A DNA stretch of 8,915 nt from IMG/VR virus record IMGVR_UViG_2778261203_000002; one strand, 5' to 3'. Source of the stretch: a virus (taxonomy: Duplodnaviria > Heunggongvirae > Uroviricota > Caudoviricetes). The translations under genes and the position numbers were made by a program. Position 1 is the stretch's first letter. Every line of letters begins with the position of its first letter. Positions 1 to 8,915 of this stretch are shown piece after piece. The notes beneath the pieces are model-generated. The model searched no databases, had not been told where the DNA came from, and was given only the letters and a program-made list of their open reading frames with translations.

Positions 1-575
1 CCATTCGTGGGACAGTATCCCTGACAGCCTACAAAACGCAATTGAAGAACGCGAGGCATCGTCTTAACGAGGCACCGAGGCGTCGCATTCTTCAGATGGT
101 TCAACCCTTAAGTTAGCGCTTATGGGAGAAATCCCCGCAACCTCTGATGTATTATGCATCCTCAACGCAGCCACAGTTAACCTGATTGGCGGGTTTACTT
201 CATCTGTAAATATTTTTATAAAAATAATGCCCACGCACAGCATAAAACAAAAAGTATTACAGATAAAAAAGGAACGTAATGTACAGATTTGTTGTTTTCC
301 ATATTTACTCACCTTAATATGATTAACCCTGATAGGGCTGTTATTTCAGCGGTTTTCAAATGAGATATTATGGTGATCTGACAAATTTGCATAACATTAA
401 AATTTAATTTGTTTAACCGCTTTTAATAATAAGCGTTGTTTGTATCCCAGCAATCTGTTGTTTGGTTTTTATTCCATTAAGGTGGGGGCTTTACACTGGA
501 ACCAGTTTATTTATACTTTATACGTCAGCCTGAACAACTGGCATCTGCTGCACTGCGCCATCGAGAGATTGAGAA

Positions 576-3048: not shown

Positions 3049-3477
3049 ATGGGTTTTCGTAGCGCATCAATTCTTACGTTGATTATTAGTGGGATTATTA
3101 TCGGGTGCACTGATGCTGTATCGACAAATTATCATGACCGTACATCATATTACTCCGATAAAGCAATAGAGACACAGTATGTGAGTTCATCTGAACGTAC
3201 TTCTGATGTTAGTGAGGATATCCGTCTGTATGCCCATCAAATCAAGAGCGCCATCGAAAAACAGTTCGGGGATGCGAGTAAGTATTCAGGAAAAGAGTGT
3301 ACACTGAGAATGCATATGGCCCCGAATGGCCTTCTACTGGAGGTTAAAAGAGAAAGTGGAGACCTCGATTTATGTCGTGAAGCGATGAATGCGATAAAGA
3401 ATGCTGATATACCTGCCCCCCCTTCGCCGGAAGTATATAAAGTATTTCAAAATGGGGTGCTGGATTTTAAACCCTGA
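3049..3477 (+). CDS. Lipoprotein with C-terminal TolA domain III-like domain
   Basis: 142-aa ORF with a GAGGA RBS. N-terminus MGFRSASILTLIISGIIIGC has a hydrophobic core and a lipobox (IIGC, Cys20 at nt 3106-3108); Thr at +2 predicts outer-membrane sorting. The C-terminal ~85 residues (YAHQIKSAIEKQFGDASKYSGKECTLRMHMAPNGLLLEVKRESGDLDLCREAMNAIKNADIPAPPSPEVYKVFQNGVLDFKP) align along their whole length with my recollection of the E. coli TolA C-terminal domain, including the two Cys residues and the terminal LDFKP. Identity was not computed. Confidence 0.85.
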   Translation: MGFRSASILTLIISGIIIGCTDAVSTNYHDRTSYYSDKAIETQYVSSSERTSDVSEDIRLYAHQIKSAIEKQFGDASKYSGKECTLRMHMAPNGLLLEVKRESGDLDLCREAMNAIKNADIPAPPSPEVYKVFQNGVLDFKP

Positions 3478-3627
3478 TATTTATTGTTTTGTAATAAACG
3501 GTTTCGGCTTAGGTTTGTTCTGACACAGCTACGGCACTGAGCTAAATTTAGCGGATAGTCAGCTCTGAGCCAGTGGCGGACGTAACAACTACTATTGCTG
3601 AGATTTTAATGGATTGAGGAGCAAGAA

Positions 3628-4023
3628 GTGGGATTAAAGAAAATCGTTATGTTGACTTTTTGGGTCGGTTTTGTTGCGGGATGCACACCTTTACACCCTT
3701 CAGATTGCCACAAAACTACTGCTACAGGTAGTTGCAGTTCAGGACGCTGGGATGATCAGGATGAATGGGGGGCGCAAGCGCGGGGAATCAGAGCTGCAAT
3801 TAATGCCAAACTTGATGAGCCGCATAACTGGAAAGGGAAAAAATGCAGGTTGCATATGGAATTCTCTCAGGATGGCACGGCGTTAAAAATATCTACCAGT
3901 AACGGTGATAAAGCCTATTGCGAAGCGATAAAGTCCGCAGCTCATAAAGCCAAATTTCCGGCCTTCAACAATCCGGAAGTCTACAGAGATTTTCAGAAAT
4001 CTGGCTTTGACATGCGAGGTTAG
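3628..4023 (+). CDS. Lipoprotein, divergent paralogue of the upstream TolA-III-like lipoprotein
   Basis: 131-aa ORF starting at GTG 3628, with GAGGAG 6 nt upstream. Signal peptide MGLKKIVMLTFWVGFVAGC has lipobox VAGC (Cys19, nt 3682-3684) and Thr at +2. The C-terminal region (GKKCRLHMEFSQDGTALKISTSNGDKAYCEAIKSAAHKAKFPAFNNPEVYRDFQ) shares the K-x-C-x-L, D/NG, GD-x-x-x-C and PEVY-x-x-FQ pattern with the upstream paralogue and with TolA domain III. Confidence 0.8.
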   Translation: MGLKKIVMLTFWVGFVAGCTPLHPSDCHKTTATGSCSSGRWDDQDEWGAQARGIRAAINAKLDEPHNWKGKKCRLHMEFSQDGTALKISTSNGDKAYCEAIKSAAHKAKFPAFNNPEVYRDFQKSGFDMRG

Positions 4024-4172: not shown

Positions 4173-4274
4173 ATTGCATCGTCTCCAGCATATATATCAA
4201 TTAAGGCTCTGATTGATGTGTCTGAAAGCCTACACATAATAACTATGCCATCCGTTCCGTGCGGAGGTGAGGCT

Positions 4275-4490
4275 ATGAAATCCATGGACAAAATTTCAAC
4301 AGGCATTGCCTACGGCACCTCCGCAGGCAGTGCTGGCTACTGGTTTTTACAGTTGCTCGATAGAGTAACTCCGTCACAGTGGGCTGCAATCGGTGTGCTG
4401 GGTAGTCTGGTATTTGGCCTGCTGACGTACCTGACAAACCTTTATTTCAAGATTAAAGAAGATAAGCGCAAGGCTGCGAGAGGTGAATAA
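4275..4490 (+). CDS. Phage 21-type class II holin/antiholin (pinholin S21 family), dual-start
   Basis: Translation [71 protein letters not shown] matches phage 21 S as I recall it, with the Met1-Lys2-Ser3-Met4 dual-start motif (antiholin from ATG 4275, holin from ATG 4284). A GGAGGTGA RBS lies at 4264-4271. The track ORF from 4218 is an upstream extension with no support. The TAA stop overlaps the endolysin ATG at 4490. Confidence 0.9.
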
Positions 4491-4987
4491 TGCCTCCATC
4501 ATTACGAAAAGTCGTTGCTGCTGCTATTGGTGGCGGAGCAATTGCTATAGCATCAGTGTTAATCACTGGCCCAAGTGGTAACGATGGTCTGGAAGGTGTC
4601 AGCTACATACCATACAAAGATATTGTTGGTGTATGGACTGTATGTCACGGGCATACAGGAAAAGACATCATGCTCGGTAAAACGTATACCAAAGCAGAAT
4701 GCAAAACACTCTTGAATAAAGACCTTGCCACGGTCGCCAGACAAATTAACCCGTACATCAAAGTCGATATACCGGAAACAACGCGCGGCGCTCTTTACTC
4801 ATTCGTTTACAACGTGGGTGCTGGCAATTTCAGAACATCGACGCTTCTTCGCAAAATAAACCAGGGCGATATCAAAGGCGCATGTGATCAGCTACGTCGC
4901 TGGACATATGCTGGCGGTAAGCAATGGAAAGGTCTCATGACTCGTCGTGAGATTGAGCGTGAAATCTGTTTGTGGGGTCAGCAATGA
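4490..4987 (+). CDS. SAR endolysin (phage 21 R-type lysozyme, glycoside hydrolase family 24)
   Basis: 165-aa ORF. The N-terminal Gly/Ala-rich weakly hydrophobic segment ([20 protein letters not shown]) is typical of a signal-anchor-release domain, followed by a T4-lysozyme-like catalytic region. Near-identical to R21 from memory. Its stop overlaps the Rz start (ATGA at 4984-4987). Confidence 0.92.
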
Positions 4988-5448
4988 ACAGAGTAACCGC
5001 GATTATCTCCGCTCTGGTTATCTGCATCATCGTCTGCCTGTCATGGGCTGTTAATCATTACCGTGATAACGCCATTACCTACAAAGCCCAGCGCGACAAA
5101 AATGCCAGAGAACTGAAGCTGGCGAACGCGGCAATTACTGACATGCAGATGCGTCAGCGTGATGTTGCTGCGCTCGATGCAAAATACACGAAGGAGTTAG
5201 CTGATGCGAAAGCTGAAAATGATGCTCTGCGTGATGATGTTGCCGCTGGTCGTCGTCGGTTGCACATCAAAGCAGTCTGTCAGTCAGTGCGTGAAGCCAC
5301 CACCGCCTCCGGCGTGGATAATGCAGCCTCCTCCCGACTGGCAGACACCGCTGAACGGGATTATTTCACCCTCCGGGAACGACTGGTAATGATGCAGGCC
5401 CAACTTGAAGGTGCTCAGCAATACATAACCGAGCAGTGTTTAAAGTAA
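4984..5448 (+). CDS. Rz inner-membrane spanin (i-spanin)
   Basis: Start taken at ATG 4984 ([55 protein letters not shown]...), which matches lambda-family Rz almost residue for residue from memory: an N-terminal transmembrane helix followed by coiled-coil periplasmic domains. The track ORF from 4972 is an in-frame upstream extension. Confidence 0.9.
5204..5389 (+). CDS. Rz1 outer-membrane lipoprotein spanin (o-spanin), embedded in the +1 frame of Rz
   Basis: 61-aa ORF wholly inside Rz in another frame. It has a lipobox (VVGC) and a proline-rich mature region ([15 protein letters not shown]), matching lambda Rz1 from memory. Confidence 0.85.
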
Positions 5449-5585
5449 AATCTTAACTACAATATGATTCATTTTGATGATTGTTTCATAAGGAACAGTG
5501 AAGTAAGATCTAAGAGGAGTTAAATTTTATACAGTATAATCATAGTATTGCAGCAAGGTGGTTATAATTGAAAGAATATTTAGAT

Positions 5586-7043
5586 ATGAATACATCTCAT
5601 GTAAGAGTTGTTACTCATATGTGTGGGTTCCTGGTTTGGCTCTATAGTCTTTCAATGTTGCCACCAATGGTTGTAGCATTGTTTTATAAAGAAAAAAGCC
5701 TGTTTGTTTTCTTTATAACTTTCGTTATATTTTTTTGCATTGGTGGCGGAGCGTGGTATACAACTAAGAAATCTGGCATTCAATTACGTACCCGTGATGG
5801 GTTTATTATAATTGTAATGTTTTGGATTTTGTTTTCTGTTATTAGTGCATTCCCTTTATGGATTGACTCAGAACTTAATTTAACGTTCATTGATGCTCTG
5901 TTTGAAGGGGTTTCTGGAATAACAACAACAGGAGCAACTGTAATTGATGATGTTAGTTCATTACCTCGGGCATATTTGTACTATCGGTCACAGTTAAATT
6001 TTATAGGTGGTTTAGGAGTTATTGTTCTGGCGGTTGCTGTATTGCCATTATTGGGTATTGGTGGTGCAAAGCTTTATCAGTCAGAAATGCCGGGGCCATT
6101 TAAGGATGACAAACTCACTCCCCGCCTGGCCGATACGTCACGGACACTGTGGATAACTTATTCTTTATTAGGTATTGCTTGTATTGTCTGTTATAGACTT
6201 GCAGGAATGCCTTTGTTTGATGCTATTTGTCACGGGATTTCCACAGTTTCGCTTGGTGGTTTCTCAACTCATAGCGAGAGTATCGGATATTTTAATAACT
6301 ATTTGGTTGAGCTGGTGGCTGGTTCTTTTTCCCTGCTATCGGCTTTCAACTTCACTCTTTGGTATATTGTTATTAGCAGGAAAACGATAAAACCTTTAAT
6401 CAGAGATATTGAACTTCGTTTCTTTCTGTTAATAGCCTTAGGGGTGATCATTGTTACCTCTTTCCAGGTCTGGCATATAGGTATGTATGACTTGCATGGA
6501 AGTTTTATTCATTCGTTTTTTCTTGCCAGCTCCATGCTCACTGATAATGGTTTAGCTACGCAGGATTATGCAAGTTGGCCCACGCACACGATAGTGTTTT
6601 TGCTGTTGTCAAGTTTCTTTGGGGGATGTATAGGTTCAACTTGTGGTGGAATTAAGTCACTTCGATTTCTTATACTTTTCAAACAAAGCAAACACGAGAT
6701 AAATCAGCTTTCTCATCCCAGAGCGTTGTTGAGTGTAAATGTAGGAGGGAAGATAGTTACAGATCGTGTAATGAGGTCTGTATGGAGTTTCTTTTTTCTT
6801 TATACTCTCTTCACGGTGTTTTTTATACTGGTGTTAAATGGTATGGGATATGATTTTCTTACATCATTTGCAACAGTGGCTGCATGTATTAATAATATGG
6901 GATTAGGTTTTGGGGCTACTGCATCGTCATTCGGAGTGCTTAATGACATTGCAAAATGTTTAATGTGCATAGCTATGATTCTTGGTCGCCTTGAAATTTA
7001 TCCTGTTATTATATTGTTTTCAGGTTTTTTTTGGCGCTCCTAA
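5586..7043 (+). CDS. trkG: TrkH/TrkG-family potassium uptake membrane protein (Trk system)
   Basis: Multi-pass hydrophobic protein of about 485 aa from ATG 5586 (MNTSHVRVVTHMCGF...), with repeated Gly-rich selectivity-filter-like segments (GITTTGATV, GIGGAK, SLGGFST, GLGFGA) typical of TrkH/KtrB. The sequence and its position directly after Rz/Rz1 match E. coli trkG of the Rac prophage as I recall it. An alternative TTG start at 5568 has AGGTGG 6 nt upstream. The gene is visibly more AT-rich than the flanking phage genes. Confidence 0.9.
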   Translation: MNTSHVRVVTHMCGFLVWLYSLSMLPPMVVALFYKEKSLFVFFITFVIFFCIGGGAWYTTKKSGIQLRTRDGFIIIVMFWILFSVISAFPLWIDSELNLTFIDALFEGVSGITTTGATVIDDVSSLPRAYLYYRSQLNFIGGLGVIVLAVAVLPLLGIGGAKLYQSEMPGPFKDDKLTPRLADTSRTLWITYSLLGIACIVCYRLAGMPLFDAICHGISTVSLGGFSTHSESIGYFNNYLVELVAGSFSLLSAFNFTLWYIVISRKTIKPLIRDIELRFFLLIALGVIIVTSFQVWHIGMYDLHGSFIHSFFLASSMLTDNGLATQDYASWPTHTIVFLLLSSFFGGCIGSTCGGIKSLRFLILFKQSKHEINQLSHPRALLSVNVGGKIVTDRVMRSVWSFFFLYTLFTVFFILVLNGMGYDFLTSFATVAACINNMGLGFGATASSFGVLNDIAKCLMCIAMILGRLEIYPVIILFSGFFWRS

Positions 7044-7129
7044 TATATGGCTGATTTATAATTGTGAGTTTAATATTATGTTGACTCACTCATTGATCCA
7101 ATACCTAACTTTACCAGCAACACCTCCGT

Positions 7130-7165
7130 CCCCAGTAGCACTGGCTGCTGGGGTGCGTTTTATTC
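7130..7165 (+). terminator. Possible stem-loop/terminator between trkG and the ParB-like gene (CCCCAG, 12-nt loop, CTGGGG, then TGCGTTTTATT)
   Basis: 6-bp GC-rich inverted repeat followed by a T-containing tract, seen directly. The loop is long and the T-run is interrupted, so this is weak. Confidence 0.3.
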
Positions 7166-7180
7166 ATAAAGCAAGGCTGT

Positions 7181-7774
7181 ATGAGCGAGAAATTAAAGAT
7201 AGTCTATCGCCCATTACAAGAATTGTCACCGTATGCGCACAACGCCAGGACGCACAGTACTGAGCAGGTGGCACAACTGGTAGAAAGTATTAAGCAATTC
7301 GGCTGGACTAATCCGGTGCTGATTGACGAAAAGGGCGAAATTATTGCGGGTCACGGTCGTGTTATGGCGGCTGAAATGCTCAAAATGGATTCTGTTCCGG
7401 TCATTGTTCTGTCTGGCCTGACGGATGAGCAGAAAAAGGCGTACCGCCTGGCAGATAATCGCCTGCCGATGAATGCTGGCTGGGATGAAGATCTGTTGCG
7501 GATGGAGCTGTCGGACCTAATCAATGCTGATTTTGATGTCTCCCTGACAGGCTTCATCCCGACAGAAATTGATGAACTGTTGACGGATGTTTTGCCCGGT
7601 ATGATATTCAGATTGCTGGTTATGGGGTTGGCGATAAAAATCAGCAACGCCAGCAGGAATTACTGCGGATTGAACGTGAATATAACAATCAGCGTCTGCA
7701 ACTTGAACGTGACTATGCAGATAAATCCCGTGGGATGTCAAATCATGTTTTTCAGGAGAAAATGCAGGCTCTGA
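7181..7774 (+). CDS. ynaK: ParB-like nuclease-domain protein, probably 3'-disrupted at a deletion junction
   Basis: ATG 7181 with AAGG 4 nt upstream. The N-terminal ~140 aa look like a ParB/sulfiredoxin-type domain, including the GHGRVMAA motif (conserved Gly-x-x-Arg). From about nt 7600 the same DNA also encodes, in another frame, a tape-measure-like coiled coil, so the last ~58 codons of this ORF (LPGMIFRLLVMGLAIKISNASRNY...) are probably not native. The gene symbol is assigned by synteny with trkG in Rac, not by sequence recognition. Confidence 0.6.
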   Translation: MSEKLKIVYRPLQELSPYAHNARTHSTEQVAQLVESIKQFGWTNPVLIDEKGEIIAGHGRVMAAEMLKMDSVPVIVLSGLTDEQKKAYRLADNRLPMNAGWDEDLLRMELSDLINADFDVSLTGFIPTEIDELLTDVLPGMIFRLLVMGLAIKISNASRNYCGLNVNITISVCNLNVTMQINPVGCQIMFFRRKCRL

Positions 7775-8502
7775 ATGATGCTCTGGAACGAGAAAAAGAA
7801 ATTGTCAGACAGAAAAACGAGCAGCTCGATATTCAGGCAGGAGACTGGGTTAGTGGTGCCTCCCAGGGATTCAATAACTGGCTGGATGACACTAAGGATA
7901 TCAGTGAGCAGATAAAATCAACCACGACTCAGATGTTTGATGGAATGACCGATGCGCTGGGTGATTTTGTCACGACAGGCAAGGCAAATTTTCGTTCTTT
8001 CGCTACTTCCGTGATTTCGGATCTTAGTCGAATAGCATTAAAGGCTTCAATTACTGGGATTTTCGACAGCATTAGTAACAGTTCTTCTGGGGGGATTTTA
8101 GGAACTATCGGGAGTGCTATTAGTAAATTTATTCCGAATGCAAAGGGCGGTGTTTATGAGTCTCCGTCATTGAACACGTATTCGAACGGTATTTATGATT
8201 CCCCGCATTTTTTTGCTTTTGCAAGAGGGGCTGGTGTTTTTGGTGAGGCTGGTCCGGAAGCCATTATGCCATTAACACGAACTTCCGATGGTTCTCTTGG
8301 TGTCAGAGCTATTAATAGTAAAAGTGGTAATGGAGGCGGAGATATTACCTATGCCCCTGTATACCAAATCACTATTCAAAATGACGGCCAGAATGGAGAG
8401 ATTGGCCCTCAGGCAATAAAAGCACTTATGGGGATGGTTGATCAGCGGGTGCAGGGCGATCTGTTAAATATGCGACGTGATGGGGGAATGTTAAGTGGCT
8501 AA
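7576..8502 (+). pseudogene. Tail tape-measure protein (lambda gpH-like) C-terminal fragment, 5'-truncated
   Basis: This frame is open from 7576 with no start codon until 7735 and begins mid coiled-coil (DIQIAGYGVGDKNQQRQQELLRIEREYNNQRLQLERDYADKSRG...). It continues with a Gly/Ser-rich C-terminal region and ends directly overlapping a gpM-like gene, reproducing the lambda H-M adjacency. The upstream two-thirds of a tape-measure gene are absent. Confidence 0.65.
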
Positions 8503-8536
8503 TACGGAAGAATTTCACTGGTTACCAGAGGATGGA

Positions 8537-8803
8537 ATGAAAACAGAAAATAAACCATCAATAAAAACTGTAAGATTTGGCGATGGTTATGAGCAACGAA
8601 GTCCAAATGGACTTAATCATTCTCTGCGCGTTTTCACCTGTGATTTCAAAGTTGAGGCGAATGAACGTGATTCATTTGAAAAATTTTTAGCCCGGCATGA
8701 AGGCTATAAATCTTTTTTTTGGCGCCCGCCGGGTATTAACAGAAAAATCAGAGTGGTGTGTCGAACGTGGTCAGCGAGCCGGAGGCGTATACCCATAGTT
8801 TAA
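8537..8803 (+). CDS. Minor tail protein M-like (lambda gpM family), C-terminus possibly altered
   Basis: ATG 8537 with GAGGA upstream (a GTG at 8495 is an alternative start). MKTENKPSIKTVRFGDGYEQRSPNGLNHSLRVFTCDFKVEANERDSFEKFLARHEGYKSFFWRPPGINRKIRVVCRTWSA parallels lambda gpM from memory (VRFGDGY, FLEEHGGWKSFLWTPP, K-V-T-C-A-K-W-S). The last ~9 residues diverge at the point where a tail-fibre-like frame opens. Confidence 0.65.
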   Translation: MKTENKPSIKTVRFGDGYEQRSPNGLNHSLRVFTCDFKVEANERDSFEKFLARHEGYKSFFWRPPGINRKIRVVCRTWSASRRRIPIV

Positions 8804-8915
8804 GTGGCAGCACGAATGCAGCTGGTAATCACAGCCATAGAGATGGCCGTCGATTTAACCCCAGTGTTTTTAAAGATACTTATCAATATGGTTATACAAG
8901 CTCAGGTCAAAATAC
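8740..8915 (+). pseudogene. Tail-fibre-like fragment (His-box-containing), partial, runs off the window end
   Basis: Frame open from 8740 to the window end encodes ...SEPEAYTHSLSGSTNAAGNHSHRDGRRFNPSVFKDTYQYGYTSSGQN. The H-x-H and Gly/Ser/Thr-rich pattern recalls side-tail-fibre proteins. It has no start codon and abuts the gpM-like 3' end, so it is probably an internal fragment fused by deletion. Confidence 0.35.

What the first reader, a model, noticed from the sequence alone, without database searches (positions are those of the whole stretch)
7576..7620. Deletion junction fusing a ParB-like gene to the C-terminal third of a tape-measure gene
The ParB-like reading frame and the tape-measure-like frame overlap from about 7576: the tape-measure frame opens without a start codon mid coiled-coil, while the ParB-like ORF continues into an implausible Cys/Asn-rich tail. 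This implies loss of everything that normally lies between them (terminase, portal, capsid, tail tube and the 5' two-thirds of the tape-measure gene), so the prophage cannot make virions. The ParB-like protein may originally have been the N-terminal domain of a larger protein.
Basis: partly seen in the sequence, partly recalled or inferred. Interest (0 to 1): 0.4.

Follow-up and report, generated by a model that had tools for sequence, protein, structure and literature searches.

The report
Deletion scar in Rac cryptic prophage
This is a real but ordinary deletion scar in an E. coli Rac-type defective prophage: 14.5 kb holding all head genes and most tail genes was lost, joining half of a ParB-like gene to the last 28% of the tail tape-measure gene.

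Summary
The observation and the interpretation both hold. The window is a whole draft-assembly contig of an E. coli Rac-type prophage: late-gene regulator, lysis genes, trkG, ynaK-like ParB gene, tail remnants.

- **Breakpoint.** Against intact Rac-like prophages and phages, the left flank is identical up to window 7601 and the right flank starts at 7598. The break therefore lies in a 4-bp microhomology, GGTA (7598-7601), and exactly 14,549 bp are missing.
- **ParB-like ORF (197 aa).** Residues 1-140 are 100% identical to an intact 263-aa protein. Residues 141-197 are the tape-measure gene read out of frame.
- **Frame 7576-8502.** It carries residues 778-1077 of a 1077-aa tape-measure protein, 298/300 identical.
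- **What was lost.** Sixteen whole genes: a TAGT-type glycosyltransferase, terminase small and large subunits, portal, capsid, head-tail connectors, tail tube, ydaY.
- **Second scar.** At about 8777-8785, gpM is fused to the end of the side-tail-fibre gene, with about 9.4 kb missing.
- **Distribution.** The same junction is in at least 24 independent draft or read-set contigs, but in 0 of 5,426 complete E. coli genomes. K-12 Rac carries different, independent deletions.

This is routine prophage decay and of low interest.

The parts
5568..7043 (+). trkG (TrkH-family K+ transporter), the cargo gene just upstream of the scar. It is context and the likely reason this flank is retained.
   Evidence: Pfam TrkH 5.2e-145. 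Annotated trkG in matching E. coli genomes.
7181..7601 (+). Genuine remnant of the ynaK-like ParB/Srx gene: codons 1-140 of 263.
   Evidence: 100% identical over 140 aa to the intact 263-aa ORF of strain 190. Pfam ParB_N 29.7 bits against a cut-off of 26.3, residues 23-90. phrog_620 positions 3-140 of 217.
7598..7601 (.). Junction 1: the 4-bp microhomology GGTA, present at both parental sites. The 14,549-bp deletion breakpoint lies within it, and no bases are inserted.
   Evidence: Three-way alignment. BLAST end-points 7601 and 7598. Exact string mapping on phage ON470616 gives L012 21323 and 35869, deletion 14,549 bp. A microhomology of 4 bp or more occurs in 1.9% of 200,000 random junctions between the same two genes.
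7601..7774 (+). Nonsense tail of the chimeric 197-aa ORF: 57 codons plus the stop, which is tape-measure DNA read in the wrong frame.
   Evidence: No similarity to the intact ParB-like protein beyond residue 140.
7598..8502 (+). 3' remnant of the tail tape-measure gene (codons 778-1077 of 1077). It lacks its own start codon and its N-terminal 72%.
   Evidence: 298/300 aa identical to residues 778-1077 of the ON470616 tape-measure protein. 99.7% nucleotide identity to annotated tape-measure genes. Pfam Tape_meas_lam_C 5.5e-27. PHROG tape-measure profiles are hit only at their C-terminal ends.
8495..8777 (+). 5' remnant of the gpM-like minor tail gene, about 94 of 112 codons.
   Evidence: Pfam Phage_min_tail 7.2e-29, profile positions 1-92 of 108. 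The match to intact prophages stops at 8777.
8777..8785 (.). Junction 2: gpM fused out of frame to the 3' end of a side-tail-fibre gene, with about 9.45 kb missing relative to L011. The exact base is not resolved because the stf reference differs slightly.
8779..8915 (+). Fragment of the side-tail-fibre (stf) gene, about codons 1048-1093 of a 1176-codon gene. It runs off the contig end.
   Evidence: 98.5% identical to L011 14001-14136 inside the annotated tail-fibre CDS 10859-14389. 99.2% identical to tail-fibre genes of phages such as mEp460.

Best explanation
The window is a Rac-type lambdoid cryptic prophage of E. coli. A single illegitimate, homology-independent deletion removed 14,549 bp between codon 140 of the ynaK-like ParB/Srx gene and codon 777/778 of the tail tape-measure gene. 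The two ends were joined at a 4-bp microhomology, GGTA.

The join is out of frame. It produces a 197-codon chimeric ORF: 140 real ParB-like codons followed by 57 nonsense codons. It also leaves a promoterless, start-less 300-codon 3' fragment of the tape-measure gene.

A second deletion at about 8777 removed the end of gpM, L, K, I, J, lom and most of stf. Together the two deletions remove every head gene and nearly every tail gene, so the element cannot build virions.

Shown: the breakpoint, the deletion size, the gene content lost, the direction of the change (deletion, not insertion), and that the junction is real in nature.

Inferred: the molecular mechanism (microhomology-mediated slippage or end-joining). 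Also inferred is that the retained flank survives because trkG, immediately upstream, is useful to the host.
For: - **Flanks in intact references.** Both flanks are collinear, in the same orientation and 14,549 bp apart in intact Rac-like prophages and phages, at 99.7-100% identity.
- **Direction of change.** The intact 263-aa ParB-like protein is conserved end to end in distant phages, so the 197-aa form is the derived one. The window ORF matches residues 1-140 only.
- **Tape-measure frame.** It equals residues 778-1077 of 1077 (Pfam).
- **Junction detail.** There are no inserted bases, and the 4-bp microhomology has a chance probability of about 0.019.
- **Real in nature.** The identical junction is present in 8 of 8 fetched contigs from independent NCBI drafts, Logan read-set assemblies and an ENA metagenome, out of 24 contigs read.
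- **It is Rac.** One carrier contig has the Rac early region (RecT, RecE, KilR, SieB, YdaT) upstream.
- **Independent decay elsewhere.** K-12 Rac has different break points in the same genes (ynaK at the position equivalent to window 7434 joined to ydaY, and the N-terminal part of the tape-measure gene joined to lom), so this region decays repeatedly and independently.
- **Literature.** Rac size and gene content vary between strains. More than half of the strains examined had lost half of the prophage, while trkG and recE are kept (PMC5700373).
Against: - The mechanism rests on one junction. A 4-bp microhomology is only suggestive (about 2% by chance).
- The window ends at 8915, and integrase and the attachment sites are not on it, so the state of the whole element cannot be seen.
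- No expression data exist, so the fragments being non-functional is an inference.
- The stf fragment after junction 2 best matches tail-fibre genes of other lambdoid phages. That end could therefore involve inter-phage recombination rather than a simple deletion.
Confidence: 0.93

Rival explanations
1. Inter-prophage recombination: the tape-measure/gpM segment comes from a different lambdoid prophage in the same genome. On this reading the junction records a rearrangement between two elements, not an internal deletion of Rac.
For: Lambdoid tail genes are mosaic and multi-copy. Query hits occur at up to 6 places per genome. The stf piece beyond junction 2 best matches other phages.
Against: The tape-measure/gpM segment is 99.7% identical to that of the very prophages and phages whose trkG-ynaK flank is 99.6-100% identical. 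It lies in the same order and orientation, exactly 14,549 bp downstream. A single deletion is the more parsimonious account.
Confidence: 0.04
2. Assembly artefact: a short-read assembler wrongly joined two loci into a chimeric contig.
For: The window is a complete short contig bounded by repeats, with an IS on the left and stf on the right. No complete genome carries the junction.
Against: The identical junction is found in contigs from different projects and different assemblers: NCBI drafts of 204 kb and 491 kb, Logan, and an ENA metagenome. A 4-bp overlap cannot mislead a k-mer assembler. One carrier (L002) has a different upstream architecture but the same junction.
Confidence: 0.01
3. Domesticated fusion: the deletion happened, but the truncated ParB_N protein (with or without its new 57-aa tail) or the tape-measure C-terminal fragment is expressed and kept by selection for a host function.
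For: Several lineages keep trkG plus a ynaK stub. The ParB_N domain is intact here (residues 23-90; break at 140) and cut near its end in K-12 (break at about codon 85). The tape-measure remnant has no stops or frameshifts, and gene callers predict a 246-aa product.
Against: - Other lineages break at query positions 198 and 167, at or before the first codons of ynaK, so the stub is not universally retained.
- The tail is an out-of-frame read with no homologues. Its 90% cluster has only 2 members.
- In the ParB homologues that activate phage T-dioxygenases, both the N- and C-terminal domains are needed for function (PMC13229309), and the C-terminal half is lost here.
- The remnant is 99.7% identical to intact genes, so the lack of disabling mutations may only mean the deletion is recent.
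Confidence: 0.04

Closest known systems
Rac cryptic prophage of E. coli K-12 (trkG-ynaK-ydaY-ynaA/tmpR-lomR-stfR region)
   Same: It is the same element. The segment from Rz to ynaK codon 85 is 99.6% identical over 2,431 bp. The gene order trkG then ynaK is the same. ynaK and the tape-measure gene are truncated and the head genes are lost in both. The Rac early genes lie on a carrier contig.
   Different: The break points differ and are independent. K-12 joins ynaK codon ~85 to ydaY (about 11.6 kb lost), keeps the N-terminal ~311 codons of the tape-measure gene, and joins that to lom. This element joins ynaK codon 140 to tape-measure codon 778, keeps the C-terminal 300 codons, and joins gpM to the stf 3' end. 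It also still has an intact holin-lysozyme-Rz/Rz1 cassette, whereas K-12 has only an rzpR pseudogene.
Intact Rac-like prophages and phages (E. coli strain 190 prophage; Escherichia phage vB_EcoS-673R7, ON470616)
   Same: 99.6-100% nucleotide identity on both flanks of junction 1.
   Different: They carry the full 263-aa ParB-like gene, a TAGT glycosyltransferase, terminase small and large subunits, portal, capsid, connectors, tail tube, ydaY and the full 1077-aa tape-measure gene between the two points.
Stepwise deletional decay of defective prophages, with retention of host-useful cargo
   Same: Large internal deletions remove morphogenesis genes while the cargo gene trkG is kept. Independent end-points occur in different lineages. 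A further 9.07-kb deletion is present in one sub-lineage. This agrees with the survey of Rac across 154 genomes (PMC5700373).
   Different: Nothing differs in kind. Only the particular allele, with its GGTA junction, is specific to this lineage.

Membership tests
Rac-type lambdoid cryptic prophage of E. coli | Near-identity and shared gene order with K-12 Rac across trkG-ynaK | tested here: met
   99.6% over 2,431 bp, window 5004-7434 against K-12 1423200-1425630
Rac-type lambdoid cryptic prophage of E. coli | Rac early region (recE/recT, kilR, sieB, ydaT) on the same element | tested here: met
   Carrier contig L002 has Lar, RecT, RecE, KilR, SieB and YdaT upstream of the same junction. It is 99.5% identical to the Rac-like phage ON470616 over 7.9 kb. 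These genes are not on the window itself.
Rac-type lambdoid cryptic prophage of E. coli | Integration at the Rac site, next to ttcA, uspF and ompN | not testable with these tools
   The window and all carrier contigs end inside stf. Intact relatives do sit beside uspF and ompN.
ParB/Srx N-terminal-domain phage proteins (Pfam PF02195; phrog_620) | ParB_N domain above the Pfam gathering score | tested here: met
   29.7 bits against a cut-off of 26.3, residues 23-90
ParB/Srx N-terminal-domain phage proteins (Pfam PF02195; phrog_620) | Full-length match including the C-terminal half of the family | tested here: not met
   The window ORF covers phrog_620 positions 3-140 of 217, whereas the intact 263-aa protein covers 3-217. 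Identity to the intact protein stops at residue 140. It is therefore a truncated member, that is a pseudogene or chimera.
Lambda-type tail tape-measure protein (gpH; Pfam PF09718 C-terminal domain) | Tape_meas_lam_C domain and C-terminal region present | tested here: met
   5.5e-27. 298/300 identical to residues 778-1077.
Lambda-type tail tape-measure protein (gpH; Pfam PF09718 C-terminal domain) | Complete gene with its own start codon and the N-terminal length-determining part | tested here: not met
   Residues 1-777 are absent. The frame opens at 7576 without a start codon, and the first ATG is at 7735. It is a gene fragment.
Microhomology-associated illegitimate deletion | Both flanks collinear in an intact reference, with a clean loss of the interval | tested here: met
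   L012 positions 21323 and 35869, 14,549 bp lost, no filler bases
Microhomology-associated illegitimate deletion | Short identical sequence at both parental break sites, beyond chance | tested here: inconclusive
   GGTA, 4 bp. The probability of 4 bp or more is 0.019 for random junctions between the two genes. This is suggestive, but it is a single event.
Microhomology-associated illegitimate deletion | No IS element, attachment site or long repeat at the junction | tested here: met
   The junction sequence is fully accounted for by the two parental flanks. The parental sites share no similarity in register beyond GGTA (read directly from the sequences).

The most novel reading that the evidence does not exclude
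The ynaK stub may be kept for a reason rather than by accident. Independent Rac lineages repeatedly lose the morphogenesis genes but several keep trkG plus a ynaK stub: K-12 to about codon 85 and this lineage to codon 140 with the ParB_N/Srx domain intact. The stub might therefore be an expressed, domesticated protein. In intact Rac-like phages the full protein is paired with a TET-associated-type glycosyltransferase. The ancestral pair may have been a DNA-glycosylation module with no recognisable dioxygenase partner.
Probability: 0.05. Interest if true: 0.35.

Novelty: new member of a known kind. Interest (0 to 1): 0.1.

Why it matters
It matters little beyond correct annotation.

- **Annotation.** The 197-aa "ParB/Srx family N-terminal domain-containing protein" deposited for these genomes is a deletion chimera, and the 246/255-aa ORF after it is a tape-measure fragment. 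Both should be marked as pseudogenes.
- **Lineage marker.** The junction is a clean marker of common descent. It is absent from 5,426 complete E. coli genomes and present in a set of draft genomes.
- **Prophage decay.** It adds one more independent example of Rac decaying by large deletions that spare trkG.

Tried and rejected
- **Exact junction in representative genomes.** A 38-nt junction string searched against the GTDB representative genomes gave no match. The junction is therefore lineage-restricted. This is not evidence against it, because the exact-protein look-up found it in at least 24 contigs.
- **Complete E. coli genomes.** No complete genome carries the junction.
- **K-12 as the source.** I asked whether the window was simply K-12 Rac. 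It is not: K-12's break points are different.
- **Insertion instead of deletion.** I considered that the 14.5 kb might be an insertion in the other genomes. I rejected this because both interrupted genes are complete and conserved in the long form.
- **tRNA or attachment-site involvement.** There are no tRNA genes in the window.
- **Literature.** I found no description of this allele. Iyer et al. 2013 on TAGT systems is not held in the library.
- **Searches not run.** I did not run the metagenome scan, structure prediction or the large protein searches, because the question was already settled.

Full report
**What is in the window.**
The ORF list and the Pfam scans show the late region of a lambdoid prophage. 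The genes, in order:

| Window coordinates | Gene or feature |
|---|---|
| 576-2004 | DUF1367, YbcO and DUF1133/Q-like genes |
| 3049-4023 | two TolA-C-terminal-domain ORFs |
| 4218-5448 | holin, lysozyme, Rz and Rz1 |
| 5568-7043 | trkG |
| 7181-7774 | a ParB_N ORF |
| 7576-8502 | a frame with a lambda tape-measure C-terminal domain |
| 8495-8803 | a gpM-like minor tail ORF |
| about 8779 to the end | a tail-fibre fragment |

The segment from Rz to ynaK is 99.6% identical to the Rac cryptic prophage of E. coli K-12. The exact 197-aa ORF is encoded on at least 24 contigs from draft E. coli assemblies, Logan read-set assemblies and an ENA metagenome. One of those contigs carries the Rac early genes (RecT, RecE, KilR, SieB, YdaT) upstream. 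Two of the fetched contigs are about as long as the window (8,916 and 9,108 bases) and match it at 99.99%. The window is therefore a whole draft contig. It is bounded by an IS on the left and by the repeated stf gene on the right.

**Checking the observation.**
Frame 1 is open from 7576 to 8502 and has no start codon before the ATG at 7735. The ParB-like ORF, in frame 2, overlaps it up to 7774. Against 5,426 complete E. coli genomes:
- The stretch to the left of the junction matches up to window 7601 in over a thousand genomes, most at 99-100% identity.
- The stretch to the right matches from window 7598, at 99.7% in the best hits.
- No genome matches across the junction.

A three-way alignment shows the join directly:

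| Sequence | Bases at the join |
|---|---|
| window | ...TTTTGCCCGGTATGATATTCAG... |
| ynaK side | ...TTTTGCCCGGTACAGGAAATGA... |
| tape-measure side | ...CAACAGGGGTATGATATTCAG... |

The breakpoint therefore lies in a shared GGTA at 7598-7601, with no filler bases. In phage vB_EcoS-673R7 (ON470616) the two sites are at positions 21323 and 35869, which makes the deletion exactly 14,549 bp. A microhomology of 4 bp or more arises in 1.9% of random junctions between these two genes. This fits microhomology-mediated illegitimate recombination but, as a single event, does not prove it.

**What each side is.**
- **ParB-like ORF.** Residues 1-140 are 100% identical to residues 1-140 of a 263-aa ORF in intact Rac-like prophages. 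Nothing aligns after that.
- **The intact 263-aa form.** It is conserved over 91-99% of its length at about 40% identity in Lactobacillus phages c5, phiLdb and jlb1 and in Haloarcula virus HHTV-2. It covers the whole phrog_620 profile, whereas the window ORF covers positions 3-140 of 217. The long form is therefore ancestral.
- **The 57-residue tail.** The sequence MIFRLLVMGLAIKISNASRNYCGLNVNITISVCNLNVTMQINPVGCQIMFFRRKCRL is the tape-measure gene read one base out of frame.
- **Frame 7576-8502.** It is 298/300 identical to residues 778-1077 of the 1077-aa tape-measure protein. It hits PHROG tape-measure profiles only at their C-terminal ends.
Bases 7576-7597 are still ynaK DNA that happens to be open in that frame.

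**What was lost.**
Between the two sites, strain 190 and phage 673R7 each carry 16 complete genes. They are:
- a 317-aa protein that Pfam assigns to the TET-associated glycosyltransferases (3.8e-35);
- a small hypothetical protein;
- terminase small and large subunits;
- the portal (DUF4055);
- a Mu-F-like minor head protein;
- a scaffold-like protein;
- a P22-type capsid protein;
- five small connector or completion proteins;
- the tail tube protein;
- ydaY;
- one more small ORF.

Also lost are 123 codons of the ParB-like gene and 777 codons of the tape-measure gene.

**A second scar.**
The match to intact prophages stops again at 8777, at about codon 94 of the 112 codons of gpM. From about 8779-8785 the window continues with about codons 1048-1093 of a 1176-codon side-tail-fibre gene, out of frame. 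Relative to the Rac-site prophage of strain Z1322HEC0009, about 9.45 kb is missing: L, K, I, J, lom and 89% of stf. With both deletions the element has no head genes. Its only tail sequences within the window are fragments of the tape-measure gene, gpM and stf. The conclusion that it cannot make virions is an inference from gene content, but a safe one.

**Independence and history.**
K-12 Rac has different scars. Its ynaK is broken at the position equivalent to window 7434 and joined to ydaY. The N-terminal part of its tape-measure gene (annotated ynaA) is kept and joined to lom. Other E. coli lineages break at still other positions just 3' of trkG, with query end-points of 490, 372, 198 and 167. 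One carrier of the present junction (L002, GCA_053750305.1) has a further 9.07-kb deletion from the replication gene to Rz, so decay continued after junction 1. This matches the published picture that Rac content varies widely while trkG and recE are retained (PMC5700373).

**Rivals.**
- **Assembly chimera.** Excluded by the identical junction in independent assemblies that have different upstream architectures.
- **Insertion in the other genomes.** Excluded by the completeness and conservation of the long forms.
- **Inter-prophage recombination.** Not formally excluded, but unnecessary, because both flanks lie in one reference element at the right spacing and orientation.
- **A domesticated, functional chimera.** Possible but unsupported. 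The tail has no homologues. Some lineages lose ynaK altogether. In the ParB homologues that activate phage T-dioxygenases, both domains are required for function (PMC13229309).

**Verdict.**
- the breakpoint is at 7598-7601;
- 28% of the tape-measure protein is retained;
- the intact ParB-like protein is 263 aa.

This is a routine deletion scar in a well-known cryptic prophage. It is a previously undescribed allele of a known kind of event and of low interest.

Noticed in passing
window 8777-8915: A second deletion junction. gpM (about 94 of 112 codons) is fused out of frame to about codons 1048-1093 of a side-tail-fibre gene. About 9.45 kb (L, K, I, J, lom and most of stf) is missing relative to L011. 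The exact base is not resolved because the available stf references differ slightly at 8778-8785.
   Followed up: partly
L001 30435-32151 (- strand); L012 20903-22619: In intact Rac-like phages the 263-aa ParB-like gene overlaps the start of a 317-aa Pfam TAGT (TET-associated glycosyltransferase) gene. In Lactobacillus phages c5, phiLdb and jlb1 a homologous ParB-like gene lies beside a gene annotated as a beta-glucosyl-HMC-alpha-glucosyltransferase. No annotated dioxygenase gene is present in the phage record. This may be a DNA-glycosylation module, and it would mean YnaK is not a partition protein.
   Followed up: partly
L001 31894-32151 (strain 190, NZ_CP020520.1): PGAP annotates the intact 263-codon ORF as a pseudogene ('ynaK, missing C-terminus') covering only 86 codons. 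The truncated K-12 YnaK (87 aa) may be serving as the naming reference, so intact genes are flagged as broken.
   Followed up: partly
window 7040-7640 compared with E. coli genomes: There are several distinct end-points just downstream of trkG in different E. coli lineages. Matches end at query positions 490, 395 (K-12), 372 (B strains), 198 (trkG next to a tail gene) and 167 (trkG next to the terminase small subunit). This suggests repeated independent deletions that spare trkG.
   Followed up: partly
L002 7862-7863 (GCA_053750305.1): This carrier has the same junctions 1 and 2 plus an extra 9.07-kb deletion from the replication gene to Rz (L012 9690 to 18764). It shows stepwise decay after junction 1.
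   Followed up: partly
window 3049-3477 and 3628-4023: Two tandem ORFs with TolA C-terminal domains (Pfam 2.4e-23 and 1.3e-14) lie between the Q-like gene and the holin. Strain 190 has two tRNA genes at this position instead. They look like moron cargo, and their function was not examined.
   Followed up: no
window 1-101; L003 1661-2820: The window starts just after an IS. In L003 a DDE_Tnp_1 transposase gene sits just upstream, next to fepA- and entD-like genes. Most E. coli matches start only at window 102. This suggests an IS-mediated rearrangement at the left end of this prophage remnant.
   Followed up: no
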